Source: an uncultured Bdellovibrionales bacterium (GTDB taxonomy: Bacteria; Patescibacteriota; Minisyncoccia; Moranbacterales; UBA1568). From it: 64,000 nt of DNA. The translations under genes were made by a program, and so were the position numbers. The stretch covers positions 2,475 to 66,474 of the forward strand of contig CAZQLN010000005.1 of assembly GCA_964594215.1 (NCBI GenBank), in the 5' to 3' direction. The notes under the pieces were generated by a model, which did not search any database, had not been told where the DNA came from, and saw only the letters and a program-made list of their open reading frames with translations. Shown here piece after piece: positions 49,625 to 64,000 of this stretch. Each line of letters opens with the position of its first letter. The first letter of the stretch is position 1.

Positions 49625-50071
49625 TTAGTAGCTATGTATGATTACTCCTTCGTTCATCATTTTTGGCATCATCATACCGAATCCCCATTCGCGATACCAA
49701 CTTTTCATATCTTTGATCTCTTTGTTTTGAGCTTCAATGATAGCTCCGGCCAAATCCTTAATTTCTTGGTGACCCGCCTGCTTCAAGGCAAGCTCCGCCA
49801 TTGAAACAGCTCCTTGGTGATGCTCAATCATTAATTCTACAAAAGCCTTATCAAAATCATCTCCTGTTTTCTCTTCAAGTGCTGTGGTCATAGCATCCAT
49901 ACTCATGTGACCAGCTGCTTTATCTTCTTGTTCGGTTCGTTGTCCTTTTTCATGAATGCCTAGTTCATGAGCTCGTTTAGATGTTTCTGGTATTCGCAAA
50001 AAAAGAATACTTGTCAGGATAACACCTAGGGCTAATCCGAGTAACAGGTACAGGATTTCTTGTCTTTCCAT
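49625..50071 (-). CDS. DUF305-family four-helix-bundle protein (metal, possibly copper, homeostasis-associated), membrane-anchored
   Basis: FDKAFVELMIEHHQGAVSMA...AIIEAQNKEIKDMKSWY matches the DUF305 HH-containing repeats. Confidence 0.65.
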   Translation of the reverse strand: MERQEILYLLLGLALGVILTSILFLRIPETSKRAHELGIHEKGQRTEQEDKAAGHMSMDAMTTALEEKTGDDFDKAFVELMIEHHQGAVSMAELALKQAGHQEIKDLAGAIIEAQNKEIKDMKSWYREWGFGMMMPKMMNEGVIIHSY

Positions 50072-50119
50072 ACTCTTATTTTAAATGGTTATACCCGTTA
50101 CCAGTATACCACTTCGGCT

Positions 50120-51571: not shown

Positions 51572-51650
51572 GTTTTTGTTCTAAAAAAGCTCTCTAAAGA
51601 GAGCACAAGGTACCAGCTAGTATGACAGAAAAAAGACTCTTCGGCAACCC

Positions 51651-52478
51651 TTAAACTAAGCGTTTGAGATACGCTGTAATAATACGGCTATCAGAGATGT
51701 ATCTCCCCCGCACCAGAGCATCGGTAGCAAATAGTTTGATATCAGTAATCGCTCGAGCCTGAAGCAACGAATCAATGATGTATTCGCGTTCTTTATCTAC
51801 CTGTTCGTCTACTTGATGGGTAAGCTGATAGGTAAATTTCGCCAAGCCAAATCCAACATCTTTGGAAGCGGCTCCTACCCACATCAGCGGTTTGCTCATA
51901 TCCACCTCTTTTCTTTTGAGCCAATATAGAGGGCTCTCAAGATCTATCTCTGGCTCGATATTAGCCGCCCAAAAACGTACGTGGTGACGCATGCGTGGGC
52001 TCTTACCAATCGGTTTCTGAAAACCATAGTCTTGGACCCGACCAAAAAGAAAAAGTGGGCTAAACGGTGCTCGCGGATAGGACTTATTAAAGAAAAAGGC
52101 TCGGAACATCCTCCAGGCAGTTTTGGGACTAATGGGATCCGCTTGTTTCCAGCCGGCCGCCTCAAAAGCCCGCCAAAGATCTTCCTCGCAACCAAAGAGA
52201 ATGATATTGACTGGATCAGCCAACACTCCGTCTGGAGCATGTGTGTAGCGTGGAATACGAGAACGCCGCAAGATCAGAATTAAGACATAGATAATACGTG
52301 GCAAGAAAAGATACGCCAACAAGAAATAGATGGCAAAAAAGGTAAGGAGAAAGAAGAACTGGGTTCGAAAACCGATAAAATAGTATGAGACCGCTCCCCA
52401 CACCAAAAACAGCGAGGTGCTAGCGAGTACCAAACGAATCAGTCCAGGACGCTTCATTTCATGCAATGGTTTTTTCAT
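51651..52478 (-). CDS. LssY-C-like domain membrane protein
   Basis: Two N-terminal transmembrane helices. PVNIILFGCEEDLWRAFEAAGWKQAD matches the LssY_C core motif. Confidence 0.45.
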   Translation of the reverse strand: MKKPLHEMKRPGLIRLVLASTSLFLVWGAVSYYFIGFRTQFFFLLTFFAIYFLLAYLFLPRIIYVLILILRRSRIPRYTHAPDGVLADPVNIILFGCEEDLWRAFEAAGWKQADPISPKTAWRMFRAFFFNKSYPRAPFSPLFLFGRVQDYGFQKPIGKSPRMRHHVRFWAANIEPEIDLESPLYWLKRKEVDMSKPLMWVGAASKDVGFGLAKFTYQLTHQVDEQVDKEREYIIDSLLQARAITDIKLFATDALVRGRYISDSRIITAYLKRLV

Positions 52479-52520
52479 CTTTGTTTTTCTCTATTGTAGC
52501 AAAACTTGAGTTTTTGTACG

Positions 52521-53954
52521 CTATGATGTTAATTTCTTGAGAAAAATAAATTCTTCATCTCGTTCTGGATGAAAAATAATTTCTGTAGAACCGCGCTGTA
52601 GATAGTTTTCAATTTCTTCTTGCGGTTTTTTCCGTGAAGCTACCCAATCCCAACTCAGCAGATATTGGGTTGTCTGTAAACCAGATTTCCGAAAAATACC
52701 TTGATTCCATAAGCGCAAGAAGTTGAGCACAAAAGCCACTAGCGTGTAATGAGAGCTATACTGAGAGCCAAAACGAATACGCTTTACCCCCAGCTCCCGA
52801 GCGATAGCCACAAATTCTCGGAAATAGCCTGAAAAAAAGTGTACGTGCTCATGAGTGGTGAGCCTTTCTGGATACTTACCAAAAACTGCATGAAACTCTT
52901 GGAGCTGTTGTCGCCAGATAGCGCCTACGTCTTGTGATTGTTTCTTGGACTGAAGAAAACGAATTACCCTCTTGGCGAATGACATTTTTGGTAGAAGCAT
53001 CAGTGTTGTCTCACGATCAAGGTGAATATCTAGTGCTGCCTGAGATGCAATGAGCTGGTCTTTTTCAGCTTGACTGAACCTCCCATTCATCATGACAGCT
53101 ACTCGTATTTTAGGCAGAAGAGCCGTAAGGGTAAGAATATGTTCATTGGCTTTTGGGCTGATCCCAAAATCATCAAAGGTGATCTCGCAGTTTAGATTCT
53201 GCCACCAAGCCTCCTCCATCAACACCCTCGTATAATACCCTCGGATAGCAAACCAACGAATTCGAAAAAGATCGCGAAGCATAAGAAGGGAGTCTCTCAA
53301 AATACGCACACTACTTGAGGTTGGATTCTGTAGGGTGATGGGAATTTCTTCGATACGATATTGTTTTTGATGAGCGAGAAATATGAACTCTGCATCAAAA
53401 GAAAAGCGATTGATCCTCATAAGTGGGAAAATCTCCTCTGCTACTTTTTTGGTAAAAAACTTACAGCCACACTGAGTGTCTCGCACTCGAGCCACTCCTA
53501 TAATTAGAATGCGTAAATAACGAAAAGCTTTTTCTAGAAGCAACCGATGATGAAGGACCGGTATAAGTACCTTGCCGCCCGGGCGCAGACGTGAGGCGAT
53601 AGCGACATCATAACCATTTTCGATACTTTTGATGAAAGCTAAAAGCTCTTCCATTGGAATAATCAGATCTGCGTCCAAAAAGCCCACTATTTCACACTCA
53701 GCTCGAGCTACGCCTTGTCTTACGGCATAACCCTTGCCTTGATTTTGTGCGTAATTCACTACCGTAATACCAAAATCTCGCACAGCTTTCTCTAGCTCAA
53801 TACTGGTCTTATCTCGACTCCCGTCATTAACCGCAATAATTTGATATTGTTCGAAATGACTCTGTAAGTATCCATGCACCACCCGGATATTCTGATAGAT
53901 GGTTTTTTCTAAATTGTAACAAGGCAAAACCAGAGAAAGGCTTCGATATTTCAT
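52521..53954 (-). CDS. GT2 glycosyltransferase fused to YdjC/ChbG-like carbohydrate deacetylase domain
   Basis: N-terminal LSLVLPCYNLE...AVNDGSRDKT...FLDADL (GT-A). C-terminal ITFDDFGISPKANEHILTLTA...MMNG resembles the YdjC DDFG motif. Confidence 0.65.
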   Translation of the reverse strand: MKYRSLSLVLPCYNLEKTIYQNIRVVHGYLQSHFEQYQIIAVNDGSRDKTSIELEKAVRDFGITVVNYAQNQGKGYAVRQGVARAECEIVGFLDADLIIPMEELLAFIKSIENGYDVAIASRLRPGGKVLIPVLHHRLLLEKAFRYLRILIIGVARVRDTQCGCKFFTKKVAEEIFPLMRINRFSFDAEFIFLAHQKQYRIEEIPITLQNPTSSSVRILRDSLLMLRDLFRIRWFAIRGYYTRVLMEEAWWQNLNCEITFDDFGISPKANEHILTLTALLPKIRVAVMMNGRFSQAEKDQLIASQAALDIHLDRETTLMLLPKMSFAKRVIRFLQSKKQSQDVGAIWRQQLQEFHAVFGKYPERLTTHEHVHFFSGYFREFVAIARELGVKRIRFGSQYSSHYTLVAFVLNFLRLWNQGIFRKSGLQTTQYLLSWDWVASRKKPQEEIENYLQRGSTEIIFHPERDEEFIFLKKLTS

Positions 53955-54041
53955 ATGCTTCTTGATAGACTGATGTCTTTAGTATATATGCTCTTCTCCC
54001 GATAAGGAAAACCCACCGACACAGGATATTCTGTGGGTGGG

Positions 54042-54611
54042 CTAGTTGGTAACATTGATTCTACTCCAGTTGAGATTCCATGGATCATTTCGCCTTTGTG
54101 GCGCTATTTGTCCATGGCCAACGATGTTCTTGATTGGATGACGTGTCTTGAGAAAAACAATGAGTTTTTGGAGTGACTCATACTGAGCCTCGGTATACTG
54201 GTCTTGTCGAGTATTCATAAGCTCAATACCGATAGAGAAACGATTGACACTTTTTCGCCCATCCGGCATCTGACTAACCCCCGCATGATAGCTCATGTCA
54301 TTATCATGTACGAGCTGATAGACACTCCCTTCTCGATCGATAACATAATGAGAGCTCACTCCGTAATGACGAAAGATGGTAATCAAATCTTCGAGTTCAT
54401 ACACGTTTCCTCCCAATGAATTATAGGAGGAATGAAGAACGATCGTATCCACTATCCGGCCTGAATGGCGGGCAAAGCCCGTCTTGACGAAACGGGGCAT
54501 GATGTTAACTACTGGTTGCGTTGAAAAAGTTAATGACTCTGAGAGTTCTGCAGACGCGCTGGTCATACTGCTTACTCCTACGAACAATAGAGTCGTAAGA
54601 ATGATTCTCAT
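54042..54611 (-). CDS. secreted N-acetylmuramoyl-L-alanine amidase (amidase_2/PGRP fold)
   Basis: Signal peptide. IVLHSS...SSHYVIDREGSVYQLV...SYHAG...NRFSIGIEL...HGQIAPQRRNDP are amidase_2 Zn-ligand motifs. Confidence 0.8.
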   Translation of the reverse strand: MRIILTTLLFVGVSSMTSASAELSESLTFSTQPVVNIMPRFVKTGFARHSGRIVDTIVLHSSYNSLGGNVYELEDLITIFRHYGVSSHYVIDREGSVYQLVHDNDMSYHAGVSQMPDGRKSVNRFSIGIELMNTRQDQYTEAQYESLQKLIVFLKTRHPIKNIVGHGQIAPQRRNDPWNLNWSRINVTN

Positions 54612-54767
54612 GACTTTTCACCTTTTGTTAAAATAACTTACCTCAAAAGTAGCCTTTTCTTTTTCAGAGGTCAATCGGTGGTTTTCAAACAAAAAGAAAA
54701 GCGGGTATTGGCTGTTAGCCGCACCGCTTCTTTTTCTTTGTAGTCTACCTTTTTGCTAAGCAGCCCT

Positions 54768-54956
54768 TCAGTCTATGAGTAACTCTGCTTCAGCCAAACA
54801 CTTTTTGCAATCTACAAACTGCTTTTGGTCAATATGGTACCAAATGTGTCCTGGTGGCCATCGGCTCGGCACTTCATCAGAAAAACCGCAGAGAACTTTT
54901 TTGATCCCTCCAACCTTATGATAAATATGAGAAATCTTTTCAGGAGAATCTTCCAT
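54768..54956 (-). CDS. hypothetical small protein
   Basis: ORF only. Confidence 0.2.
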   Translation of the reverse strand: MEDSPEKISHIYHKVGGIKKVLCGFSDEVPSRWPPGHIWYHIDQKQFVDCKKCLAEAELLID

Positions 54957-54968
54957 CTCTTTCTTCCT

Positions 54969-55421
54969 TTAGATAAACTGGAGTCTTTTGGATTTGTGCA
55001 GCACCTCTAAAATATTTGGATGAACTTGGACGACTCTAACCGGTACTACTTCTTCGAAGGCTAGACATACTAGTCCTGGCTCCACAATTTGAGTAAAATC
55101 ACTTCGTTTGAGGATATGAATATAGCCCATGCCAATAGATAGAAATTCTGGACCCTGAACAAAAAGGTGTGGCTTTTTCTCTGGATCAAATTTCCAGCCC
55201 CATTCAGTCTTCGGGGAACGAATCACCGCATGAACCAGGGCGATATCTGTAAACAAGGTTCCGTACACAGCACGCTGATTGTACTCTGGTATCAGATGCG
55301 CTTGATTTGGCACGGCTGGTTTGAGTATTTTATGGTCTTTTTGGGCCCCATGAAGGACCAGCTTATCAGCCGGAAGTCGGTCAAGATAAGCAATGATTTG
55401 TTCATTGGTCATCCCTGACAC
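54969..55421 (-). CDS. hypothetical protein
   Basis: 150-aa ORF with no recognisable motif. Confidence 0.35.
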   Translation of the reverse strand: MSGMTNEQIIAYLDRLPADKLVLHGAQKDHKILKPAVPNQAHLIPEYNQRAVYGTLFTDIALVHAVIRSPKTEWGWKFDPEKKPHLFVQGPEFLSIGMGYIHILKRSDFTQIVEPGLVCLAFEEVVPVRVVQVHPNILEVLHKSKRLQFI

Positions 55422-55518
55422 TCCCTATGTTAAACAACTATTAAAACGTAGTTAATCAGAGTCAAAGCTGACTGTCAATTGAGAGGAAATACTCTACCAA
55501 ATGAAGTTGCGACTACTC

Positions 55519-56544
55519 CTAATTCAACATCTTCGATTTTGGAAGAATGACCTCATTATGATGTCCTCCTTCTATAAAGACTTGGATATTCTCTATGGTC
55601 ATAGTGAGGATACGTTCTAGGGCTTCCTCTGAGAAAAAGGCAATGTGTGGAGTATAAACCACTTCATCACGACTAAGCAGCATATGATCCTTGACCAGCT
55701 CTGTCATTTTTTCGATGCTCATCGAGTTCGTATAGAGAAGTTCTTTCTCTTCTCTAACCAACTCTTCGCCCTCGATCACATCGAGACCACAACCACGAAG
55801 TATTTTCTGATCTAAGGCCCACAGGAGAGCTTCGTTGTCGACCAACTCTCCTCGTGAAGTATTGATAAGCATAGCCCCAGGCTTCACTAATTTAATATTC
55901 TCTTTATTAATGAGGTGGTAGGTCTCCTTTACATACGGGGCATGAAGAGAAATGATGTCTGATTGAGTCAACACTTCGTTAAGAGATAAGTATTCGTAAC
56001 CATACTTAATGGCCAACTCTTCATTAGGAAAGACATCAAAAGCCACCACCTTCATCTCAAAGGCTCTGGCAATCTGAATAACATGCACCCCGATTTTACC
56101 AGTTCCAACAACACCAAGGGTTTTTCCTTGTAAATCAAAGCCCTTTAGACCCTCAATGGTAAAGTTATTACGCAACCGCCTTACATGCGATTTGTGGATG
56201 TTGCGAGAAAGAGCTAATATCAAGGCAAAAGTATGCTCAGCCACCGTATGCTCACCATAGGTAGGCACGTTTGAAACCAAAACTTCTCTTTCATTCGCAG
56301 CCTCAAGATCAATATGATTATAACCAGTCGACCGTGTAGCAATCAGTTTTAGTTGCGGCATACTAGCTATGACCTCTCGGGTAATCTGGCTATGAATAAA
56401 AACTGAGAGGACATCACACTTATTTAAGGCTGCTAGATTTTCTGGCTTGAGGGTATCACGAAAAAATTGCAGGTCGTGCTCATGGAGTTTTTCTCTTAGT
56501 ATCTTCTCCTCCCACTCTTCTATCTCAAAAAAAGTAATGTGCAT
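55519..56544 (-). CDS. D-isomer-specific 2-hydroxyacid dehydrogenase (D-lactate / phosphoglycerate dehydrogenase family)
   Basis: NAD-binding GVVGTGKIGVHVIQIARAF. Catalytic His near HIAF. Start set at MHITFFEIEE. Confidence 0.8.
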   Translation of the reverse strand: MHITFFEIEEWEEKILREKLHEHDLQFFRDTLKPENLAALNKCDVLSVFIHSQITREVIASMPQLKLIATRSTGYNHIDLEAANEREVLVSNVPTYGEHTVAEHTFALILALSRNIHKSHVRRLRNNFTIEGLKGFDLQGKTLGVVGTGKIGVHVIQIARAFEMKVVAFDVFPNEELAIKYGYEYLSLNEVLTQSDIISLHAPYVKETYHLINKENIKLVKPGAMLINTSRGELVDNEALLWALDQKILRGCGLDVIEGEELVREEKELLYTNSMSIEKMTELVKDHMLLSRDEVVYTPHIAFFSEEALERILTMTIENIQVFIEGGHHNEVILPKSKMLN

Positions 56545-56599
56545 GTTATTGATATTTAATAAAGTATCTCTCCACTGAAAACTCCCAACCACTACCCCT

Positions 56600-57016
56600 T
56601 TATGCCTCTACGTATTTTTTGAAATTATTGAGTATCGCTTGCCAACCATTTTGCTGCATCTCAAGCGGGTTGGTATCTTCAGGATCAAAGCTTTCAATCA
56701 CCCTGCATCCACCATTTTCCTCTTTGAATTCAACACTTACCTTTCTTTCACCATCTCCAATCAAGGTATACTCTATCTTCTTATTCTCTTCAACCGCAGT
56801 ATAGCTACCTTCGAGGTCAAATCCGACACTACCATCTTTAGCTTCCATCCTCGTCTTGAAGTTTCCTCCTGTACGAACATCGTTCTCAGCTTTTGGTACA
56901 CACCAGTCATCTGAGGCAAAACACCATTTCACGATATGCTCTGGAAGAATCCAATATTGCCAGACTTTTTCTATGGGAGCATCTATCAAAACTTCTACAG
57001 TTACTTGAGGTTTCAT
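56600..57016 (-). CDS. SRPBCC-superfamily protein (AHSA1/START-like)
   Basis: 138 aa. IDAPIEKVWQYWILPEHIVKW...SYTAVEENKKIEYTL pattern of AHSA1-like SRPBCC proteins. Confidence 0.65.
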   Translation of the reverse strand: MKPQVTVEVLIDAPIEKVWQYWILPEHIVKWCFASDDWCVPKAENDVRTGGNFKTRMEAKDGSVGFDLEGSYTAVEENKKIEYTLIGDGERKVSVEFKEENGGCRVIESFDPEDTNPLEMQQNGWQAILNNFKKYVEA

Positions 57017-57149
57017 ATATTTTATCTAATATTCTCTAGCTTAAATATACCATGTTCAAAAGTTGGTGTTTATTGACAAATTACCAGTTCCCCCTAGGCA
57101 AATATCAAAAGCCGTATACAATAGTCTTATAACCCCTAATGTAAAAAAC

Positions 57150-57401
57150 ATGGCAGCAAACAGTGCATTCATGAAGCCGATGAAAATCAGTCCAGAACTG
57201 GCGGCTGTAGTTGGTGACGGGCCAATGCCCCGCTCAGAGGTAGTTAAGCAGCTTTGGGTCTATATAAAAGGCAAAAACCTTCAGGATCCATCCAACAAGC
57301 GCAACATCAATGCCGATGAAGCTTTGAAAAAAGTGTTTGGCGGTAAAGAGACAGTGAATATGTTTGAAATGACTAAACTGGTCTCAAAGCACCTCTCATA
57401 A
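57150..57401 (+). CDS. stand-alone SWIB/MDM2-domain protein
   Basis: ISPELAAVVGDGPMPRSEVVKQLWVYIKGKNLQDPSNKRNINADEALKKVFGG...VNMFEMTKLVSKHL is near-consensus SWIB. The track start is a TTG further upstream; the first ATG is used here. Terminator at 57427-57460. Confidence 0.8.
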   Translation: MAANSAFMKPMKISPELAAVVGDGPMPRSEVVKQLWVYIKGKNLQDPSNKRNINADEALKKVFGGKETVNMFEMTKLVSKHLS

Positions 57402-57426
57402 TCTTGAGCCCTACAGAAGAATAATC

Positions 57427-57460
57427 AAAAAACGTCTCCTCTTGGAGACGTTTTTGTTTT
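57427..57460 (+). terminator. intrinsic terminator after the SWIB gene
   Basis: AAAAAACGTCTCCtcttGGAGACGTTTTTGTTTT. Confidence 0.75.
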
Positions 57461-57700
57461 ACGTAGAACGATGGATAAACCAGCCAAACAACAAAACCTG
57501 TGCGAGCCACTGCTTAACAATGAAAAAGAATGAAAAAGGACGGGTGTAGAATTATTAGTTCTTCACTCGCCCTGTATTGATTGTAATCAATTCACAACCA
57601 TTCTTCAATGGAATAATCGTAAATTGGGCTTAGCTCAAATAGACCAAGGCCTACTGATGAATAGACTTACAAAGGGAGTAACGAAAACAATATCTTGTCT

Positions 57701-57871
57701 CTACCTTTGTTTGTAGCCGTTACGCTGACCTTTTCTGTAAGACTCATTGTCAGACATCATCTGACGCTCCTTCTTACCAGACGAGAAAAAGACTTCTGAT
57801 CGACTATGGGGAGCATCATAGATGTTCTTACCACCATCTCTTTGGCCCTTCTCATAATAACGCTTACTCAT
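57701..57871 (-). CDS. hypothetical small basic protein with repeated KGQR(D/N)G motif
   Basis: MSKRYYEKGQRDGGKN...YRKGQRNGYKQR. ORF only. Confidence 0.25.
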   Translation of the reverse strand: MSKRYYEKGQRDGGKNIYDAPHSRSEVFFSSGKKERQMMSDNESYRKGQRNGYKQR

Positions 57872-57966
57872 AACTACCGCCTTTCTGTCAGGACTTTCAT
57901 ACCATAATGATAATGGTATCTCCAATAATCACTGACACCCGTAATCTAGCAAATCTATATATATTG

Positions 57967-58311
57967 TCAACGAAAACGTGTATAAGATAGTAGATAATCA
58001 CTAATTAAAGCCAAGATAGACCAGTAGATAAGAAGATAAATACCAATAAATGGTGGTGGTGGATCTTCTTGCAAAAAATGAATCTGCGGTAGAGCTATGG
58101 GTCCTATCAAAATAATCTTGATAGGTAGTAGTATTGTGGACAGAGTACTCTTCCAGACTATAGGCGAGTCACTACCAGTTCTGAGGACAGAGTCGGGAGA
58201 TTTAGGGAAGCCTCGAAGACCTGTTGATCCCAAAAGTGAGGTGGTGATAAAAAGAAAGGTAAATCCAAAAACAATGAAGAGGCTAAGGAATTTCATTCTT
58301 GAAACATTCAT
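57967..58311 (-). CDS. hypothetical membrane protein
   Basis: ORF with 3 predicted transmembrane helices. Confidence 0.3.
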   Translation of the reverse strand: MNVSRMKFLSLFIVFGFTFLFITTSLLGSTGLRGFPKSPDSVLRTGSDSPIVWKSTLSTILLPIKIILIGPIALPQIHFLQEDPPPPFIGIYLLIYWSILALISDYLLSYTRFR

Positions 58312-58476
58312 AAAATCAGTATATCAAGTTTGAACTTTGTACAACACACTCTGCCCAATTTAGAAAACAGCGTTCGAGGTTGCTTATCTTATATCGAAAC
58401 CCCTAGATACGCTTCTATATGTTTTCCTGACACAGGAAGATTTGATATAATGACACTACACATAAGATACATAGGT

Positions 58477-58953
58477 ATGACCCCAAAGAATACAATTTGC
58501 CTCTGGTTCGAAAAGGATGCAGAGGCCGCAGCTAACTTTTACGCTGCCACTTTCCCAGAAAGCTCTGTAACAGCTATTTTTCACGCACCGAGCGATTTTC
58601 CAGACGGTAAGCAAGGTGACGTGCTTACAGTATTGTTTACTGTCTGTGGAATTCCTTGTATCGGTCTGAATGGCGGTCCTGTATTTAAGCAAAGTGAAGC
58701 ATTTTCCTTTCAGATTGCGACTGAGGACCAAGAAGAAACGGATCGTTATTGGGATGCAATCGTCGGAAATGGCGGTGAGGAAAGTGAGTGCGGTTGGTGC
58801 AAAGACCGCTGGGGAGTATCATGGCAAATCACACCTCGCACACTAACAGAAGCCCTTGCAACCGGAGGCGCTGAAGCAAAGCGCGCTTTTGACGCTATGA
58901 TGACCATGAAAAAAATTGATGTCGCCGCTATTGATGCGGCGCGGCGCGGCTAA
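58477..58953 (+). CDS. VOC-superfamily protein (PhnB / 3-demethylubiquinone-9 3-methyltransferase-domain family)
   Basis: ICLWFEKDAEAAANFYAATFP...VLTVLFTVCG...WCKDRWGVSWQI matches the PhnB-like family. Local GC is higher than the surroundings. Start set at MTPKNT. Confidence 0.7.
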   Translation: MTPKNTICLWFEKDAEAAANFYAATFPESSVTAIFHAPSDFPDGKQGDVLTVLFTVCGIPCIGLNGGPVFKQSEAFSFQIATEDQEETDRYWDAIVGNGGEESECGWCKDRWGVSWQITPRTLTEALATGGAEAKRAFDAMMTMKKIDVAAIDAARRG

Positions 58954-58986
58954 GACCACCCACCAACTCAAGCTTTATCAGAATCT

Positions 58987-59017
58987 AAAAAAGAGGCCTC
59001 TATAGAGGCCTCTTTTT
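58987..59017. terminator. bidirectional intrinsic terminator
   Basis: AAAAAAGAGGCCTCtataGAGGCCTCTTTTT between convergent VOC (+) and DUF1428 (-) genes. Confidence 0.75.
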
Positions 59018-59080
59018 CAATGTTCCGCTTATTGAAAAAGGCTAGAATACTCTAACATCTTACGTACACCCTTATCACTC

Positions 59081-59455
59081 TTACATACCTACCTCTACAG
59101 TAAAACCTGCAGACGTAAAGCGCTTCATATCAAAAGGCATCTTCATATCTTTATCGCTGTATTTTTTTCCAAAATAATCCATCACTTTTTTATTCACTTC
59201 GTCTCGATGTTTTTTAGACTTATAGGTAATGAAGGAAAACCAGACCGTTTCTCCCGGCTTTGCCTGAATCATTTTTGGAAAAGTTAAACTTACAAATTCA
59301 TTTGGCTTTTCAACATCTAAGACGCACTCTTTGTAATCCAGGGCGCCAAATTTTTTCCAAGCAGCCCTGCCTTCTTTAGCCATTTTTATATAGGCCTGCT
59401 TGTTCTTCTTAGGAATAGCAATGACAAAACCATCAACATAGTTTCCTTTAGGCAT
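59081..59455 (-). CDS. DUF1428-family protein
   Basis: MPKGNYVDGFVIAIPKKNKQAYIKMA... matches the DUF1428 N-terminus. Confidence 0.7.
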   Translation of the reverse strand: MPKGNYVDGFVIAIPKKNKQAYIKMAKEGRAAWKKFGALDYKECVLDVEKPNEFVSLTFPKMIQAKPGETVWFSFITYKSKKHRDEVNKKVMDYFGKKYSDKDMKMPFDMKRFTSAGFTVEVGM

Positions 59456-59540
59456 ACATTTATAGGTTTAATAATTACACAACTATTATAGCATTCCTAA
59501 AATCAAAAACACCTCCACTAAGAAGGTGTTTTTAGTTTAT

Positions 59541-59732
59541 GCTCCCGAATTAAAACCTTCGCAAACTTTTGAAATCATTTTGCCAAATCTGATACACAAA
59601 TCCAAAAAGCGAAATCTGACATAACCGCCTCGCTTCGCTCGGCGGAACGCTCGGGCGTGGCGGAATTCCTCCCCCCAACCCCCTCCTTCCGCCACGCCCT
59701 CGCTTGGGCTTCGCAAAAATTTTTCGGCGGCT
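59541..59732. repeat. 192-bp GC-rich inverted repeat A, copy 1 (contains 13-bp stem hairpin GGGCGTGGCGGAA/TTCCGCCACGCCC)
   Basis: Perfect reverse-complement match to 62303-62494. GC-rich in an AT-rich context. Abuts the stop codon of the SGNH hydrolase gene. Confidence 0.9.
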
Positions 59733-60322
59733 TATAATACTGATTCAATTTCGGACTTTATCTTTTCAAAAATCTTAAAATGTCCTTGTGTGTTTGGATG
59801 AAGTCCGTCAATAAGATCGTCGTTTCCAGTGACGCTTTCCATTGGGATAAATTTCAGCTTTTCTTTCTCGCAAAACTTCTTTATGGCACTATCAAGTCGT
59901 TTGATGTTTTCGTTGAAATAAGACTTATCGGGTTTCCACGGGCAAGGAGTAGTTTTTGATTCGTCTACTTTTGTTAAGCCAACGAATACAACCTTATCTG
60001 TAAATTTTCTGGCAATAGAGAGAAGTTTTGCGAGATTTTGCTGAAATTCATCAAGCGAAACGCGCAAGCCATTTGTAGAGTGAATAAATTGAGCGTCATT
60101 GATTCCAATAGCAAAAATTATCAAATTTGGCTCGCGCGATTTCGCTTCCACCTCAATTCGTTCGAGCAAGTCGGCTGTGATGTCTCCGGAAACTCCAAGA
60201 TTGTAAACGTCAATATCATTATCTTGTTTTTCAAAATAATTTCGCAAGCGCGTTGCCCAGCCGCCTTGCTCTGGATCGTATGCGCCCCAAGTTATACTGT
60301 CGCCAAAAATTAAGATATTCAT
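59732..60322 (-). CDS. SGNH/GDSL-family hydrolase (cytoplasmic)
   Basis: MNILIFGDSITWG (GDS block I), GINDA (block III), DGLHPN (block V with catalytic His/Asp). Confidence 0.8.
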   Translation of the reverse strand: MNILIFGDSITWGAYDPEQGGWATRLRNYFEKQDNDIDVYNLGVSGDITADLLERIEVEAKSREPNLIIFAIGINDAQFIHSTNGLRVSLDEFQQNLAKLLSIARKFTDKVVFVGLTKVDESKTTPCPWKPDKSYFNENIKRLDSAIKKFCEKEKLKFIPMESVTGNDDLIDGLHPNTQGHFKIFEKIKSEIESVL

Positions 60323-60325
60323 AAT

Positions 60326-60943
60326 TTATTTTATCTTTCCCCTTAAATAATCAGCTATTGTATCAATATATTTAGAAACTTCAGTAGAAAAAGCATCTTG
60401 TTCAGTTTCAGAACTTTGATCATAGATAATGTCATGTATAGCCATTAAATCTTTTGTGCGCATTTCTGGCGCGCTAAAATTTTGATTCAGATTGATATTT
60501 AACTCACGAACTTTTTTGTTTAAAGGTTTTGTTAAGTCTACAATTTCATGCCCCCATAGTGCTTCTGCTGTAAGCAAGTATGATTCTGCTTCGGTATATG
60601 CATCAGTAATTTTTTGCCAACGCATTTCGTAAACATAAGCATGTTCGTTTTTCTTCACTTCCTCGTCAGACTTTTCTGGATTTCTTTCTTTAATGAATTT
60701 TACTGCTCGTTGGCTTTCAGATGGCCAAATAGCTGGATTGCGAACATGCTTTATTGCCTCTCGTAATTTGAGCATTGCAAAGTGTAAATTATGAGCCGCT
60801 TCAAACTCTTTCGACCCCTTAATTTGTTTTTTCCAAGTAGCCAAACCAAACCCAGCAATTATCAAGCCCGCAAGCGTAAATAAAGCCGTGAGTACATCTT
60901 TCGTTATTAAATACCAATCTTGATTTGTTAAAGTAATTTCCAT
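60326..60943 (-). CDS. hypothetical membrane-anchored helical protein (island cargo)
   Basis: N-terminal transmembrane helix, then helical soluble domain. No known motif. Confidence 0.45.
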   Translation of the reverse strand: MEITLTNQDWYLITKDVLTALFTLAGLIIAGFGLATWKKQIKGSKEFEAAHNLHFAMLKLREAIKHVRNPAIWPSESQRAVKFIKERNPEKSDEEVKKNEHAYVYEMRWQKITDAYTEAESYLLTAEALWGHEIVDLTKPLNKKVRELNINLNQNFSAPEMRTKDLMAIHDIIYDQSSETEQDAFSTEVSKYIDTIADYLRGKIK

Positions 60944-60950
60944 TTTTGAA

Positions 60951-61331
60951 TTATTTTAATAAATCATCCATTGATTTACCTTTTTCTTTTAGCGTTTCTT
61001 CAAGCTGCTTTCCAGCGGCTTCTATTTCCTCGTCATTAGCTTTTCTTACAACTTTTTCTATACCAAAGAGTTTGATAAAAATTTTGTCAAAAATATATGT
61101 GATTACAAACCAAGTAATTATTCCGTAGACAAATGAAAGAAAAAAGTTTATTTCAAAAAATTTCCAATATACAAAGATACTTACAATGGCAACTAAGAAA
61201 TAAATTATTGTAGTCGCTTTACCTACGGACGATTTATTAAAAAGTTCGCGTGTCGTTCGCTTCAACTCCATTTCACGAAGCATTTTTGCTTCTGGAAATT
61301 TTTTATCAAATTTTTCTTTCATTGATTCCAT
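60951..61331 (-). CDS. hypothetical 2-transmembrane protein (island cargo)
   Basis: Charged helical N-terminus, two adjacent transmembrane helices, charged coiled C-terminus. This is an architecture similar to 2-transmembrane effector modules, from pattern only. Confidence 0.45.
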   Translation of the reverse strand: MESMKEKFDKKFPEAKMLREMELKRTTRELFNKSSVGKATTIIYFLVAIVSIFVYWKFFEINFFLSFVYGIITWFVITYIFDKIFIKLFGIEKVVRKANDEEIEAAGKQLEETLKEKGKSMDDLLK

Positions 61332-61336
61332 AATTT

Positions 61337-61999
61337 TTAGAGCCCAAGATCGCTCATTTTTTTATCAATAATAGCCGACCCTTTCGATTCCCGCGGAAAC
61401 GAACCGTCTGCGTTAAAGAAAGTAACTTCTTTGGTTGGATGATTTGCTTTTTTAGGAAACAATGAAGCAATTTTCTCAATATTTGTGAATGGTTCGGTTT
61501 CTATCTCTTTTCCTTCGAGTTCAGCGGTGTGAGCATCTGTCGAAGATAACGACTTTGTGTTTGGTTTTTTCTTTAAAAGATCTCCTACTTCTGTAGCGGC
61601 AATTTGCCAATAAGTACAAAGTGCTATTTCGTGTTCAGCCGTTGTTCCTTCGTGATATTTTTCAAGGTGTTCCAATAATTCTTTAGAGCAATCCCATAGA
61701 TTGTCATATTTCAAGGAACCTTCCGAGTAATCAATCTTCGTTGATTCGCCCAACATAAGATAGAACATCAGTTTTAAAAGGTGTCCAGGATTCTTGGCAT
61801 GCAAGGCAAAAACTTCAAGCCAGTTTCCCTCAAGTTTTCCATATAAGTGAGGGTAATCCTTGCATTCCTCTTTTTTCTTTGCTTCCCATTCAGCATCAAA
61901 TTTATCAGAAGCTTCTTGATCTATTACATTTTGCTTTTGGCGGTAAATTTTATAAAGAATGAAAGCGATTATTATAAGAATGATGTAAAGAAAAGTCAT
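61337..61999 (-). CDS. hypothetical N-terminally anchored protein (island cargo)
   Basis: One transmembrane helix, then a 190-aa soluble domain with several Cys/His. No known motif. Confidence 0.45.
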   Translation of the reverse strand: MTFLYIILIIIAFILYKIYRQKQNVIDQEASDKFDAEWEAKKKEECKDYPHLYGKLEGNWLEVFALHAKNPGHLLKLMFYLMLGESTKIDYSEGSLKYDNLWDCSKELLEHLEKYHEGTTAEHEIALCTYWQIAATEVGDLLKKKPNTKSLSSTDAHTAELEGKEIETEPFTNIEKIASLFPKKANHPTKEVTFFNADGSFPRESKGSAIIDKKMSDLGL

Positions 62000-62012
62000 A
62001 TTTTTATAAAAA

Positions 62013-62210
62013 TTATTTTAATAATTCCTCTATAGAAACGCCTAACGACTTGGCAATTTTTTGGATTGTCTGAACGCTTGGTTTGGTAACGACACCACCC
62101 TCAATTTTGGTAAAGGTAGAGTATTTTATATTGGCTTTTTTCGCCAAGTCATCCTGCGTCAATCCTTGTTTTGTTCGTATTCGTTTTATATTTTGTGATA
62201 TTGTTGCCAT
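62013..62210 (-). CDS. XRE-family HTH transcriptional regulator (first gene of the island operon)
   Basis: MATISQNIKRIRTKQGLTQDDLAKKANIKYSTFTKIEGG...IQKIAKSLGVSIEELL is a Cro/CI HTH. Start set at the ATG at 62210. Confidence 0.75.
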   Translation of the reverse strand: MATISQNIKRIRTKQGLTQDDLAKKANIKYSTFTKIEGGVVTKPSVQTIQKIAKSLGVSIEELLK

Positions 62211-62302
62211 AGTATCCAAAGTTTGATAGTATAGAGTTATGAGACAATTCTTTCTTTGCTCACAAATTAAGGATAGCACTATTTTGGGATTTTTTCAATT
62301 CG

Positions 62303-62494
62303 TAGCCGCCGAAAAATTTTTGCGAAGCCCAAGCGAGGGCGTGGCGGAAGGAGGGGGTTGGGGGGAGGAATTCCGCCACGCCCGAGCGTTCCGCCGAGCG
62401 AAGCGAGGCGGTTATGTCAGATTTCGCTTTTTGGATTTGTGTATCAGATTTGGCAAAATGATTTCAAAAGTTTGCGAAGGTTTTAATTCGGGAG
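62303..62494. repeat. 192-bp inverted repeat A, copy 2
   Basis: Exact reverse complement of 59541-59732. Confidence 0.9.
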
Positions 62495-62556
62495 CCATAA
62501 AATTAGATACGAACTCATTTTTTGAAGATGAGAGTGTTCGCTCGCCCAGCCCCGCC

Positions 62557-62641
62557 ATAAGCGGGGCTGGGCTTCGCTCCGCGAGGGCAACGCCCTCGCT
62601 TTGGCGGGAAATCAAGCGGATTTTAATGCTTTCGGGGGAAT
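62557..62641. repeat. GC-rich inverted repeat B, copy 1 (two hairpins, CCCAGCCCCGC-cataa-GCGGGGCTGGG and CGAGGGC-aac-GCCCTCG)
   Basis: Reverse-complement match (1 mismatch in about 85 bp) to 63917-64000. Shares a CGCCCTCGCTT(G/T)GGC core with repeat A, in the same orientation as A copy 1. Confidence 0.8.
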
Positions 62642-62678
62642 TCAATTTTTTCTTTTTAACAATTAACAATGCAAAACT

Positions 62679-64000
62679 ATGAATATGAAAAATTGCGCCA
62701 TTTATACAAGAGTTTCAACTGATAACCAAGCAGAAAAAGAATTTTCATCTTGTGAAGCGCAAGAACAGAAAATCCGGTCGTTTATCGCTAGTCAAAATGA
62801 TTGGTTAGTTTTCAAAGTTTATAACGACGCGGGATTTTCGGGCGCAATTTTACAACGCCCCGCTTTGCAGGATTTACTTGCCGATTTGAAAAAAGAAAAA
62901 ATTGATGTGGTTTTGGTCTACAAAATTGATCGGCTCACTCGTTCGCCGAAGGATTTTTACCAACTGATTGAATTTTTTGAGCAAGCAAAAATTGATTTTA
63001 TTTCCATTACGGAAAGATTTGACACCTCAACGCCCGCCGGCCGTTTGCTTCGCAATATCATGCTTACTTTTTCACAATTTGAGCGAGAACTAACAAGCGA
63101 AAGGACAAAAGATAAAATGTTGGAACGCGCAAAAAAGGGGCTTGCAAACGGCGGGCTAACACCTTACGGCTATATGCGCCAAGATAAGAAACTTATCCCA
63201 CACCCGAAGGAATCGGAGGAAATAAAATCAATTTTTGAAACTTATATTGAAACTGGCTCAACCGCTAAAACCTATCAAATGTTGAAAGATAAAGGAGTCA
63301 AAAATAAGTTAGGCAAAAATTTCTCCAAAACAAATATCAGCCATATTTTGCGAAATGTTATCTACATAGGCAAGGTTTTGCACAACGGCGAAATTTATCA
63401 GGGAATCCATGAGCCGATAATTTCGGAAGAAATTTTTGCCCTTGCTCAAAAAATCCATAAGGAAAAGCAGAAAAATTTTAGAGTGTACAAAAATTTTCTT
63501 TTTGGCGGACTTATAAAATGTGAAGAGTGCGGTTCAAATATGACTTCTTGTTTTACCAATAAATATATTGGTGGAAAATTAAACCGCTATTATTACTATC
63601 GTTGCACCGCCACGATGAAGCAAGATTGGCAGGCGTGTTCGGTAAAACAAGTGTCCGCCGAACGAATAGAAAATTTTTGTTTGGAAAATTTAGAGCGAAT
63701 TTCTGTTGATAAAAACTATATTGAAAATCTTGTTTTTCGTTTGAATAATGACGAACAAGCAGGGCACCGCGCTGGATACGAACTAACAGACCGATGCTCT
63801 AAATTTTCCGCCGAAAACCTTTCGGACACTCTAAAATTTTTCCTCAATGGACTCAAAACCACCAAAGGAATTGAAAGAAATCTTTTTGCCAAAAAGTTTC
63901 TTTCAAACATTTTTTATTCCCCCGAAAGCATTAAAATCCGCTTCATTTCCCGCCAAAGCGAGGGCGTTGCCCTCGCGGAGCGAAGCCCAGCCCCGCTTAT
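62679..64000 (+). CDS. large serine recombinase (resolvase-type catalytic domain, recombinase domain, zinc ribbon), 3' end beyond the window
   Basis: Manual translation from ATG at 62679: MNMKNCAIYTRVSTDNQ (catalytic Ser), DAGFSG, VYKIDRLTRS, FERELTSERTK, GGLTPYGY, zinc ribbon CEECG...YYYRC. There is no stop before 64000, which is why it is absent from the ORF track. Confidence 0.9.
   Translation, partial: MNMKNCAIYTRVSTDNQAEKEFSSCEAQEQKIRSFIASQNDWLVFKVYNDAGFSGAILQRPALQDLLADLKKEKIDVVLVYKIDRLTRSPKDFYQLIEFFEQAKIDFISITERFDTSTPAGRLLRNIMLTFSQFERELTSERTKDKMLERAKKGLANGGLTPYGYMRQDKKLIPHPKESEEIKSIFETYIETGSTAKTYQMLKDKGVKNKLGKNFSKTNISHILRNVIYIGKVLHNGEIYQGIHEPIISEEIFALAQKIHKEKQKNFRVYKNFLFGGLIKCEECGSNMTSCFTNKYIGGKLNRYYYYRCTATMKQDWQACSVKQVSAERIENFCLENLERISVDKNYIENLVFRLNNDEQAGHRAGYELTDRCSKFSAENLSDTLKFFLNGLKTTKGIERNLFAKKFLSNIFYSPESIKIRFISRQSEGVALAERSPAPL
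63917..64000. repeat. inverted repeat B, copy 2 (inside the 3' region of the recombinase gene; continues past the window)
   Basis: Reverse complement of 62557-62641. Encodes recombinase residues ...IKIRFISRQSEGVALAERSPAPL. Confidence 0.8.

What the first reader, a model, noticed from the sequence alone, without database searches (positions are those of the whole stretch)
59732..62210. Island cargo is a five-gene operon of unknown function: XRE regulator, three transmembrane proteins, cytoplasmic SGNH hydrolase; possible defence or abortive-infection-like module
The operon is XRE, a 220-aa N-anchored protein, a 126-aa 2-transmembrane protein, a 205-aa N-anchored helical protein, and a GDSL/SGNH hydrolase with no signal peptide. 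It is strongly AT-rich relative to its neighbours, tightly packed with gaps of 4-14 nt, and sits inside a recombinase-associated repeat structure. A small 2-transmembrane protein plus an esterase/lipase-type effector under an XRE switch fits architectures seen in phage-defence and conflict islands. None of the three membrane proteins matches a family I recognise.
Basis: inference. Interest (0 to 1): 0.55.

Follow-up and report, generated by a model that had tools for sequence, protein, structure and literature searches.

The report
Payload of a small integrative element
The five genes are real, but they are not a dedicated five-gene system: the regulator belongs to a tiny serine-recombinase mobile element that spreads among ultra-small (CPR) bacteria, and the other four genes are one of many interchangeable payloads, about three in ten of which are recognisable anti-phage genes elsewhere.

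Summary
Observation confirmed. Five tightly packed minus-strand genes lie at 59732-62210: XRE, a 220-aa N-anchored protein, a 126-aa 2-TM protein, a 205-aa N-anchored protein and a cytoplasmic SGNH esterase. GC is 0.35 against 0.42 for the rest of the window. A perfect 192-nt inverted repeat encloses them, next to a large serine recombinase (LSR).

Interpretation partly supported. The segment is the payload bay of a ~4.5-kb LSR element. In sister copies this element is integrated at the 3' end of tRNA-Asn, and it is found across CPR/Patescibacteria classes with recombinases 88-97% identical. The XRE and its promoter are element backbone: the closest sister (L170) is 93% identical through XRE, S2 and the recombinase. 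Homology stops exactly at the start of the 220-aa gene.

In 83 sister loci the bay holds 163 different protein clusters. Restriction-modification is the commonest theme; TIR, OLD-like ATPase, NUDIX, hydrolases and many small membrane proteins also occur. This window's payload is found in no other copy.

The three membrane proteins are CPR-wide, highly conserved families that recombine freely. They have no Pfam, PADLOC, PDB or Foldseek match. A defence or exclusion role is plausible by context (~0.4) but unproven.

The parts
59541..59732 (+). S1: left arm of the inverted repeat (attL-like). It consists of the core GCTCC, an 85-nt conserved module and a GC-rich hairpin module, and ends at ...CGGCGGCT.
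   Evidence: 192-nt perfect IR. The same arm was found in 32 species genomes and at least 120 metagenome stretches. The outer boundary is sharp at (G)GCTCC.
59653..59699 (.). Hairpin inside S1: 13-bp stem GGGCGTGGCGGAA/TTCCGCCACGCCC around a conserved 21-nt C-rich loop. The mirror copy in S2 is at 62337-62383.
   Evidence: 12 of 13 stem pairs show changes on both sides across 22 distinct arms; 0 of 500 shuffles reach the observed score. The loop motif occurs only in the two arms of the window.
59732..60322 (-). Payload gene 4: cytoplasmic SGNH/GDSL esterase, 196 aa. Its stop codon overlaps the inner end of S1.
   Evidence: Pfam Lipase_GDSL_2 2.7e-25. All four catalytic blocks present, no TM or signal peptide.
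60326..60943 (-). Payload gene 3: p205, one N-terminal TM plus an all-helical bundle.
   Evidence: 113 homologue clusters. AF2 pLDDT 93.7. No PDB or BFVD match. About 30% identical relatives in phage moron positions and on plasmids.
60951..61331 (-). Payload gene 2: p126, a 2-TM protein with charged cytoplasmic tails.
   Evidence: 111 homologue clusters, 55-100% identical, in sources named Adlerbacteria, Parcubacteria and WWE3. Hydropathy.
61337..61999 (-). Payload gene 1: p220, an N-terminal TM plus a helical/mixed domain with invariant His/Glu residues.
   Evidence: 398 homologues at E<=0.001. AF2 pLDDT 91.2. No PDB match. Homology to the closest sister element ends at its start codon.
62013..62210 (-). 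XRE-family regulator, 65 aa. It is element backbone, not payload.
   Evidence: HTH_3 8e-15. PADLOC Control_protein 1.7e-10. 91-97% identical in L170, L071, L103 and L069 ahead of other genes.
62270..62298 (-). Promoter-like site TTGAAA-17-TATCCT with an extended -10 TG, abutting the inner end of S2.
   Evidence: Consensus scan. The equivalent -35/-10 sequence is retained in sisters L037 and L015. This is a prediction, not a measurement.
62304..62660 (-). S2: right arm (62304-62495) joined through the core to an inverted copy of the last ~165 nt of the recombinase gene (62496-62660). It is an inverted attP-like site between the XRE and recombinase promoters.
   Evidence: The same arrangement occurs in L017, L026, L037, L041, L045 and many metagenome loci.
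62682..64000 (+). Large serine recombinase gene, cut by the window end.
   Evidence: TP901-1 integrase catalytic domain 1.5e-31; A118 integrase recombinase/zinc-ribbon region 4e-12. 88-97% identical to sister elements.
63916..64000 (+). S3: start of the recombinase 3'-end segment that is repeated, inverted, in S2. By analogy with sisters, the core and tRNA-Asn should lie about 60-140 nt beyond the window.
   Evidence: 85 nt, 99% complementary to 62557-62641. In sisters this segment joins antisense tRNA-Asn.

Best explanation
SHOWN. Window 59541 to about 64066 is a ~4.5-kb integrative element driven by a large serine recombinase. Its layout is S1 arm | payload | XRE + promoter | S2 (inverted arm + inverted copy of the recombinase 3' end) | recombinase | S3.

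In sister copies S3 joins the antisense 3' end of tRNA-Asn, so S1 and S3 behave as attL and attR. The XRE and its promoter are part of the backbone. They sit just inside S2 and read through whatever lies between the XRE stop codon and the inner end of S1. The four genes p220, p126, p205 and SGNH are therefore one interchangeable payload expressed from a built-in, probably autoregulated promoter.

INFERRED.
- The XRE works like a restriction-modification C-protein: it sets the level or timing of payload expression after the element arrives in a new cell.
- The GC-rich arm hairpin ends the transcript.
- p220, p205 and a small 2-TM partner (here p126) form a membrane-anchored, cytoplasm-facing complex. 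It acts in conflict with phages or rival elements, by exclusion of incoming DNA or by abortive membrane damage.
- The SGNH esterase is an independently acquired accessory enzyme, not the effector of that complex.

My confidence in the structural part is about 0.9. My confidence in the defence or exclusion role is about 0.4.
For: Element and att sites:
- The recombinase is an LSR.
- Its 3' motif plus core is joined to the arm in 31 cases and to antisense tRNA in 11 of 12 others, with differing tRNA sequences. Those tested with ARAGORN are tRNA-Asn(GTT).
- S2 and S3 occur together in at least 9 loci.

XRE is backbone:
- Window and L170 are collinear at 92.8% over 61996-63998 and 98% in the arms, and unrelated in between.
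- XRE is 91-97% identical in four sisters with other payloads.
- XRE lies at the S2 side in every sister locus inspected.
- A promoter-like site abuts S2.

Payload bay:
- 83 loci hold 259 ORFs in 163 clusters.
- DNA methyltransferases and restriction enzymes are the top Pfam and PADLOC hits.
- TIR, AAA_15, DUF4238, TaqI and Eco57I also occur.
- At least 24 of 83 loci carry a recognisable R-M, TIR or EndoVII gene by a crude motif screen.

Membrane module:
- XRE-p218-p205-98aa(2TM) recurs in at least 8 contigs. p216-p204 occurs in L003. XRE-p126-p203 occurs in L046.
- A p220 relative sits a few genes from CBASS and beside an MBL protein with LmuA/PDC hits.
- p205 relatives occupy a moron slot in a P2-like tail module, lie beside a phage C5-methyltransferase, and lie beside IS elements on plasmids.
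- Topology is cytoplasm-facing.
- Identity is very high across CPR orders, and GC is low.
Against: - No payload protein matches any PADLOC, Pfam, NCBIfam or PHROG defence family. There are no Foldseek hits with E<=0.001.
- The bay also carries plainly non-defence enzymes such as NUDIX, Ser_hydrolase, SDR, HAD and deaminase. The contextual prior for defence is therefore only about 0.3-0.5.
- There is no NTPase, nuclease or other usual sensor or effector domain.
- Physical interaction of the three membrane proteins is untested.
- The promoter and terminator are consensus or structure predictions only.
- S3 and the tRNA are outside the window, so integration at tRNA-Asn is inferred from sisters.
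- The payload orientation in a short-read assembly cannot be verified across a 192-nt inverted repeat.
Confidence: 0.45

Rival explanations
1. Lifestyle or envelope accessory module. The SGNH esterase acts as a lysophospholipase or acyl-esterase, and the membrane proteins help these lipid-auxotrophic episymbionts process host-derived lipids or remodel their envelope. The element spreads a metabolic trait, not immunity.
For: The best NCBIfam hit of the esterase is TesA/lysophospholipase L1, but only 5e-9 and 36 bits against a cut-off of 270. Many sister payloads are small hydrolases or nucleotide-housekeeping enzymes: Ser_hydrolase in 3 clusters, NUDIX in 4, alpha/beta hydrolases, HAD and SDR.
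Against: SGNH is not linked to p220, p126 or p205 in any other locus fetched. The esterase is cytoplasmic with no membrane anchor. The membrane proteins have no transporter-like or enzyme-like match.
Confidence: 0.2
2. No joint function. The four payload genes are an accidental mosaic of independently mobile genes that merely share the bay's promoter.
For: Each gene appears in different combinations elsewhere. Against the same Zambryskibacteria-type cluster, p205 is 93% identical but p220 only 45%. This exact payload is absent from the other ~150 arm-bearing loci.
Against: p220-like plus p205 plus a small 2-TM protein recur together behind an XRE in several backgrounds. All ORFs are intact, tightly packed and highly conserved.
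Confidence: 0.2
3. Phase-variable inverton. The recombinase flips the 2.57-kb segment between the 192-nt arms to switch the operon on and off.
For: A perfect inverted repeat lies beside a serine recombinase. The neighbouring recombinase segment is indeed found in both orientations in different loci: L015 and L068 against the majority.
Against: XRE lies next to S2 in every sister locus inspected. The predicted promoter lies inside the segment and would move with it. The enzyme is a large integrase-type recombinase, not a small invertase. The arms are 192 nt, not about 26-bp crossover sites.
Confidence: 0.07
4. Remnant lysis cassette of a defective prophage: a holin-like 2-TM protein, anchored partners and a wall or lipid esterase.
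For: p126 has a holin-like size and topology. SGNH domains occur in phage tail and lysis proteins (PHROG hits).
Against: There are no phage structural or replication genes in the element. p126 occurs between an SDR and a DUF4145 protein in L010. p220 has no relatives on viral contigs. The esterase lacks any export signal.
Confidence: 0.03

Closest known systems
Genomic islands and prophage-like elements integrated by large serine recombinases (TP901-1, A118/LI, SPbeta SprA, SCCmec Ccr type)
   Same: An LSR gene lies at one end. The att sites share a short core. Integration is into a conserved chromosomal target, and cargo lies between attL and attR.
   Different: The element is only ~4.5 kb and has no other mobility, replication or packaging genes. 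It carries an internal inverted attP-like copy (S2), so the payload lies between 192-nt inverted arms and the recombinase gene lies between ~150-nt inverted repeats. The target is a tRNA 3' end, which from my own knowledge is more typical of tyrosine integrases.
Defence hotspots of mobile elements (P2/P4 hotspots, integron cassettes carrying defence genes, serine-recombinase-linked defence loci; PMC13552941)
   Same: A conserved backbone carries one sharply bounded variable slot. Restriction-modification and other defence genes are over-represented there.
   Different: The slot is bounded by inverted arms that carry hairpins and is served by a built-in XRE and promoter. The hosts are CPR bacteria. 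PMC13552941 concerns small serine recombinases, not LSRs.
Controller (C) proteins of restriction-modification systems and CapH-type regulators of CBASS
   Same: A small XRE-family HTH is the first gene of the operon it controls. PADLOC gives Control_protein 1.7e-10 and capH 1e-8.
   Different: Here the regulator is tied to the element rather than to a particular effector set. No operator has been demonstrated.
Serine-invertase switches (Hin, Gin, Pin) and invertons
   Same: An inverted repeat flanks a DNA segment next to a serine recombinase gene.
   Different: See the membership test. The payload orientation is constant, the enzyme is an LSR, and the repeats are ten times longer.
SGNH/GDSL hydrolases (TesA/lysophospholipase L1, acetyl-esterases)
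   Same: All four catalytic blocks are present and the Pfam scores exceed the gathering cut-off.
   Different: It is far below the equivalog cut-offs. It has no signal peptide, and its substrate is unknown.
Small membrane effectors of abortive infection and superinfection exclusion (CBASS 2-TM effectors, RexB, holin-like toxins)
   Same: Small 1-2-TM proteins with cytoplasmic tails, encoded on mobile DNA under an HTH regulator.
   Different: There is no sequence or fold similarity. The resemblance is architectural only.

Membership tests
SGNH/GDSL hydrolase | Conserved blocks I (GDS), II (G), III (GxND) and V (DxxH), with a Pfam score above gathering | tested here: met
   GDS 7-9, G 43-46, GIND 73-76, DGLH 172-175. 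PF13472 scores 90.3 bits against a cut-off of 32.9.
XRE / HTH_3 transcription regulators | Cro/C1-type helix-turn-helix domain | tested here: met
   PF01381 scores 55 bits against a cut-off of 23.
Large serine recombinase integrative element | Resolvase-type catalytic domain followed by recombinase and zinc-ribbon domains | tested here: met
   TP901-1 integrase 1.5e-31 over residues 2-136; A118 integrase 4e-12 over residues 159-343.
Large serine recombinase integrative element | attL/attR junctions sharing a core with a conserved chromosomal target | tested here: met
   In sister loci the recombinase 3' end plus GGCTCC joins tRNA-Asn in 11 host backgrounds and joins the arm in 31. In this window S3 is cut off, so this rests on analogy.
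Large serine recombinase integrative element | Excision and integration activity | not testable with these tools
   Needs read-level junction detection or an attP x attB assay.
Known anti-phage defence systems (PADLOC-DB 2.0) | Payload proteins match models of a known or candidate system | tested here: not met
   0 families for SGNH, p205, p126 and p220 at E<=0.1. Only the generic HTH matches.
Inverton / serine-invertase switch | Segment found in both orientations | tested here: not met
   XRE lies next to S2 in every sister locus inspected. Within-population flipping was not testable.
Inverton / serine-invertase switch | Small (~190 aa) invertase and short crossover sites, with the promoter fixed outside or the gene fixed outside | tested here: not met
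   The recombinase runs for more than 439 aa within the window and sisters are 472-499 aa. The arms are 192 nt. The promoter-like site is inside the segment.
Integron | Tyrosine IntI integrase, attI, and cassettes in direct orientation each ending in attC | tested here: not met
   The recombinase is serine-type. The arms are inverted, and there are no repeats between payload genes, whose gaps are 3-13 nt. The hairpin with conserved structure resembles attC only loosely.
Type II toxin-antitoxin pair with an XRE antitoxin | Regulator/antitoxin co-inherited with its specific toxin | tested here: not met
   The same XRE (91-97% identical) precedes unrelated genes in L170, L071 and L103. In L069 the contig ends just after the XRE.

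The most novel reading that the evidence does not exclude
The inverted hairpin-bearing arms, the built-in XRE/promoter and the serine recombinase together form a gene-capture and expression platform. It would be functionally analogous to an integron but built on a large serine recombinase. It swaps multi-gene payloads at precise boundaries and shuttles them between CPR classes. In this copy the payload p220-p126-p205 is a previously unknown membrane-complex immunity system of ultra-small bacteria.
Probability: 0.15. Interest if true: 0.8.

Novelty: new variant of a known kind. Interest (0 to 1): 0.55.

Why it matters
- CPR/Patescibacteria have tiny genomes and few recognised defence systems, and they are hard to manipulate genetically.
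- A ~4.5-kb element with 88-97% identical recombinases in genome records named Saccharibacteria and Paceibacterota points to recent gene flow across very deep lineages.
- Its single payload bay gives a ready-made list of candidate accessory and defence genes. The three conserved, structurally confident but unmatched membrane protein families seen here are on that list.
- The recombinase has a defined natural target, the tRNA-Asn 3' end. It could be tried as an integration tool for these organisms.
- For the finding as written, the practical message is narrower. The XRE is not a dedicated switch, the esterase is not a conserved partner, and a defence role is a hypothesis to test, not an annotation.

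Tried and rejected
1. Direct annotation. Pfam, NCBIfam, PADLOC and PHROGs on the five proteins, and Pfam on 82 and 57 family members. Only SGNH and HTH are real hits. The remaining hits are driven by TM helices (FeoB_associated, Chordopox_A13L, YqhR).

2. Structure. The AF2 models of p205 and p220 are confident (pLDDT 93.7 and 91.2). Foldseek against PDB and BFVD gave nothing with E<=0.001, only generic helical bundles. Profile searches against PDB sequences were empty.

3. Phage origin. p220 is absent from IMG/VR. p205 has three ~30% identical relatives there. Nothing was found in GenBank phages.

4. Known RNA. An Rfam scan of 59000-64000 gave only noise, and there is no tRNA in 50000-64000.

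5. Transposon with terminal inverted repeats. Rejected because there is no transposase in the payload. The outer boundaries behave as att-type junctions sharing a core with tRNA-Asn.

6. Inverton, integron, toxin-antitoxin pair and lysis cassette. See the membership tests and rival explanations.

7. p126 and the 98-aa 2-TM protein of the Zambryskibacteria-type cluster are not detectably homologous.

8. Literature. Four full-text searches found no description of this element. None of the 12 listed hits of a fifth search connects an SGNH hydrolase with a defence system.

9. One look-up failed for lack of capacity.
Full report
1. THE OBSERVATION

The minus strand of 59732-62210 carries five ORFs separated by 13, 5, 7 and 3 nt. 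They are XRE (65 aa from the ATG at 62210), p220, p126, p205 and a 196-aa SGNH hydrolase. Pfam confirms HTH_3 (8e-15) and Lipase_GDSL_2 (2.7e-25), and gives nothing credible for the three middle proteins.

Hydropathy gives one N-terminal TM in p220, one in p205 and two in p126. Lys/Arg clusters lie on the side that puts the soluble parts in the cytoplasm. The esterase has blocks I, II, III and V, its catalytic Ser at residue 9, and no hydrophobic segment.

The segment has 34.9% GC. The rest of the window averages 42.3%, and no same-size window elsewhere falls below 36.4%. A 192-nt, 100% identical inverted repeat encloses the genes: 59541-59732 and 62304-62495.

2. THE ORGANISM AND THE THREE UNKNOWN FAMILIES

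Homologues are confined to CPR/Patescibacteria. Source names include Zambryskibacteria, Nomurabacteria, Adlerbacteria, Paceibacterota and WWE3. Each protein forms its own family:
- p205: 113 clusters.
- p220: 398 proteins at E<=0.001.
- p126: 111 clusters.

Identities are unusually high, mostly 50-93%.

The genes occur in different combinations:
- tRNA-Ala | XRE remnant | p216 | p204 | 107 aa | MBL in a Nomurabacteria contig.
- p204 alone beside tRNA-Gln, GIY-YIG genes, an IS and a resolvase.
- A p220 relative in arrays of other small proteins, once a few genes downstream of a CBASS pair (SAVED + SMODS) and beside an MBL protein with LmuA/PDC-M48B-type hits.
- XRE | SDR | p126 | DUF4145 | Ser_hydrolase in Adlerbacteria.
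- XRE | p126 | p203.
- XRE | p218 | p205 | 98-aa 2-TM protein in at least eight contigs.

A p220-like protein, p205 and a small 2-TM protein behind an XRE form a recurrent core. The SGNH gene accompanies them nowhere else.

AlphaFold models are confident, at pLDDT 93.7 and 91.2. They match nothing in PDB or BFVD at E<=0.001. Profile searches against PDB sequences and member-wise Pfam scans give only TM-helix noise.

p205 has ~30% identical relatives in three settings:
- A P2-like phage, between the baseplate-spike gene and the tail-completion genes, on the opposite strand. This is a classic moron position.
- Beside a phage C5-methyltransferase.
- Beside IS elements on Leptospira and Burkholderiaceae plasmids.

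3. WHAT THE REPEATS ARE

The arms start sharply at (G)GCTCC. Outside the right arm, S2 continues into an inverted copy of the last ~165 nt of the recombinase gene. That gene starts at 62682 and runs off the window. It encodes a large serine recombinase: the TP901-1 catalytic domain scores 1.5e-31 and the A118 recombinase/zinc-ribbon region 4e-12.

An exact 24-mer of the arm was found in 32 species-representative genomes. Their record titles name Saccharibacteria, many Paceibacteria orders, Levybacteria and Magasanikbacteria; three MAGs are labelled Gammaproteobacteria. Many matches lie at contig ends.

Across these loci, the recombinase 3' motif plus core is joined to the arm in 31 cases. In 11 of 12 others it is joined to the antisense 3' end of a tRNA with differing sequences, that is, in different hosts. 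The junction tRNAs tested with ARAGORN are tRNA-Asn(GTT).

The element is therefore integrated at tRNA-Asn. S1 is attL-like, S3 is attR, and S2 is an extra inverted attP-like site between the recombinase and the XRE. The same layout occurs in genome-derived loci with recombinases 91-96% identical at protein level. It also occurs in metagenome loci whose recombinases are 88-97% identical.

Two loci, L015 and L068, show the recombinase reading straight into the arm and then the XRE promoter. The recombinase segment therefore exists in both orientations.

In this window S3 is cut at 64000. By register with the sisters, the core should lie near 64066.

4. BACKBONE VERSUS PAYLOAD

The closest sister, L170, is collinear with the window at 92.8% over 61996-63998, which covers the XRE, its promoter, S2 and the recombinase. 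It is 98% identical in the arms and unrelated in between. The break falls at the p220 start codon.

XRE homologues 91-97% identical precede different genes:
- L170: three other small N-anchored membrane proteins.
- L071: a membrane protein and two further proteins I did not annotate.
- L103: two membrane proteins.

XRE lies on the S2 side in every sister locus inspected. A promoter-like TTGAAA-17-TATCCT with an extended -10 abuts the inner end of S2.

So the XRE is part of the element, and the payload proper is 59733-61996.

5. WHAT THE BAY CARRIES ELSEWHERE

In 83 loci with at least 600 nt of interior there are 259 ORFs in 163 clusters. Complete bays are 1.5-3.4 kb.

Pfam on 143 representatives finds 122 families:
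- DNA methyltransferases lead (N6_N4, N6, Eco57I, D12, EcoRI).
- Restriction enzymes also occur (Tsp45I, GmrSD).
- Then come NUDIX, Ser_hydrolase, HAD, alpha/beta hydrolases and radical SAM.

PADLOC agrees. Individual sisters carry LexA-fused methyltransferase with EndoVII or TaqI nucleases, DUF4238, a SEFIR/TIR protein, and an AAA_15/AAA_21 ATPase with a deaminase.

By a crude motif count, at least 24 of 83 loci hold a recognisable R-M, TIR or EndoVII gene, and 26 hold a membrane protein.

None of the other arm-bearing loci carries p220, p126, p205 or this SGNH gene.

6. MECHANISM

Shown:
- An LSR element at tRNA-Asn.
- A sharply bounded payload bay.
- A backbone XRE with a promoter-like site that reads into the payload.

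Inferred:
- The XRE acts as a C-protein-like controller. PADLOC gives Control_protein 1.7e-10 and capH 1e-8.
- The transcript ends in the arm hairpin.
- p220, p205 and p126 act together at the inner face of the membrane in conflict with phages or rival elements.
- The esterase is an add-on.

I put the structural account at about 0.9 and the defence or exclusion role at about 0.4. No payload protein resembles a validated defence protein, and the bay also carries ordinary enzymes.

The rivals are a lipid or envelope accessory role, an unrelated mosaic, an inverton and a lysis remnant. They are weighed in their own entries.

7. COMPARISON AND NOVELTY

The element works like a genomic island with a defence hotspot. 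It qualifies as an LSR integrative element on the sequence features that could be tested.

It differs from described LSR elements in four ways:
- Its minimal size.
- The internal inverted attP-like site, so that payload and recombinase each sit between inverted repeats.
- The built-in regulator.
- Its spread across CPR classes.

Four full-text searches found no description of it. A 2026 paper links small serine recombinases to defence loci in general. I rate it a new variant of a known kind. The payload consists of three uncharacterised families whose role is open.

8. UNEXPLAINED

(a) Each arm holds a 13-bp-stem hairpin. Its stem sequence differs between elements with full compensation: 12 of 13 pairs change on both sides, and 0 of 500 shuffles reach the score. 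Its C-rich loop is nearly invariant. The loop occurs in both orientations relative to the arm.

(b) In seven of the eleven distal junctions I read by hand, the stop codon of the last payload gene overlaps or abuts the inner end of the arm (T|AGCCGCCG).

(c) How new payloads enter between such precise boundaries is unknown.

Noticed in passing
window 62557-62641 and 63916-64000; loci L015, L068 versus L017, L026, L037, L041, L045, L085, L121: The recombinase gene itself lies between ~150-nt inverted repeats (a copy of its own 3' end). It is found in both orientations in different loci. In one state the ORF ends in the arm (…APELKPSQTFEIILPNLIHKSKKRNL[TK]*). In the other it ends in antisense tRNA-Asn (…APAPGFEPGT…), so the enzyme has two alternative C-termini.
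   Followed up: partly
window 59653-59699 and 62337-62383; arms of about 84 loci: A conserved hairpin sits in each arm. The stems differ between elements with full compensation (12 of 13 pairs; 0 of 500 shuffles reach the score). The C-rich loop TTCCTCCCC..ACCCCTCC is nearly invariant. The loop occurs in either orientation (28 'type I', 56 'type II'), and one stem family occurs in both. There is no Rfam match.
   Followed up: partly
window 59732-59734; L010 7787, L014, L021, L035, L037, L043: The stop codon of the last payload gene overlaps or directly abuts the inner end of the arm (…T|AGCCGCCG). The inner ends of the arms are identical to the base across unrelated payloads, which hints at a precise insertion or exchange mechanism.
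   Followed up: partly
L170 2302-3885; L032 86-1633: A second, distantly related large serine recombinase (23-29% identity) reads directly into the same arm and ends with the same 27 residues. The arm is therefore shared by different recombinase lineages. In L170 the bay is flanked by two recombinase genes.
   Followed up: no
L014, L022, L030: The arm occurs in three MAGs labelled Gammaproteobacteria, one with a SEFIR/TIR payload next to a PEP-utilising enzyme gene. This could be mis-binning of CPR contigs or transfer into hosts of episymbionts.
   Followed up: no
L045 1603-3021, L021 4838-6268, L044 500-2020, L087 863-2383 (cluster present in 12 loci): The commonest payload protein is a fusion of the LexA DNA-binding domain, an S24 self-cleaving peptidase and an N6/N4 DNA methyltransferase. 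It is paired with EndoVII-type or TaqI-type nucleases. This is an unusual architecture for a restriction-modification methylase.
   Followed up: partly
L048 3151-3801: A ~30% identical relative of p205 sits in a P2-like phage between the baseplate-spike gene and the tail-completion genes, on the opposite strand. This is a moron position.
   Followed up: partly
L055-L057, first ~200 nt: The GC-rich hairpin module with the same loop and inner end (…GTCGGCTA) precedes the XRE of the p218-p205 cluster, without the 85-nt outer module. The two halves of the arm can therefore occur separately.
   Followed up: no
L001 (2843 nt) and other arm-bearing contigs: Short-read assemblies break inside the arms: the L001 contig ends inside both arms and many other matches lie at contig ends. 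Payload orientation in assembled contigs, including this window, is therefore not independently established.
   Followed up: no
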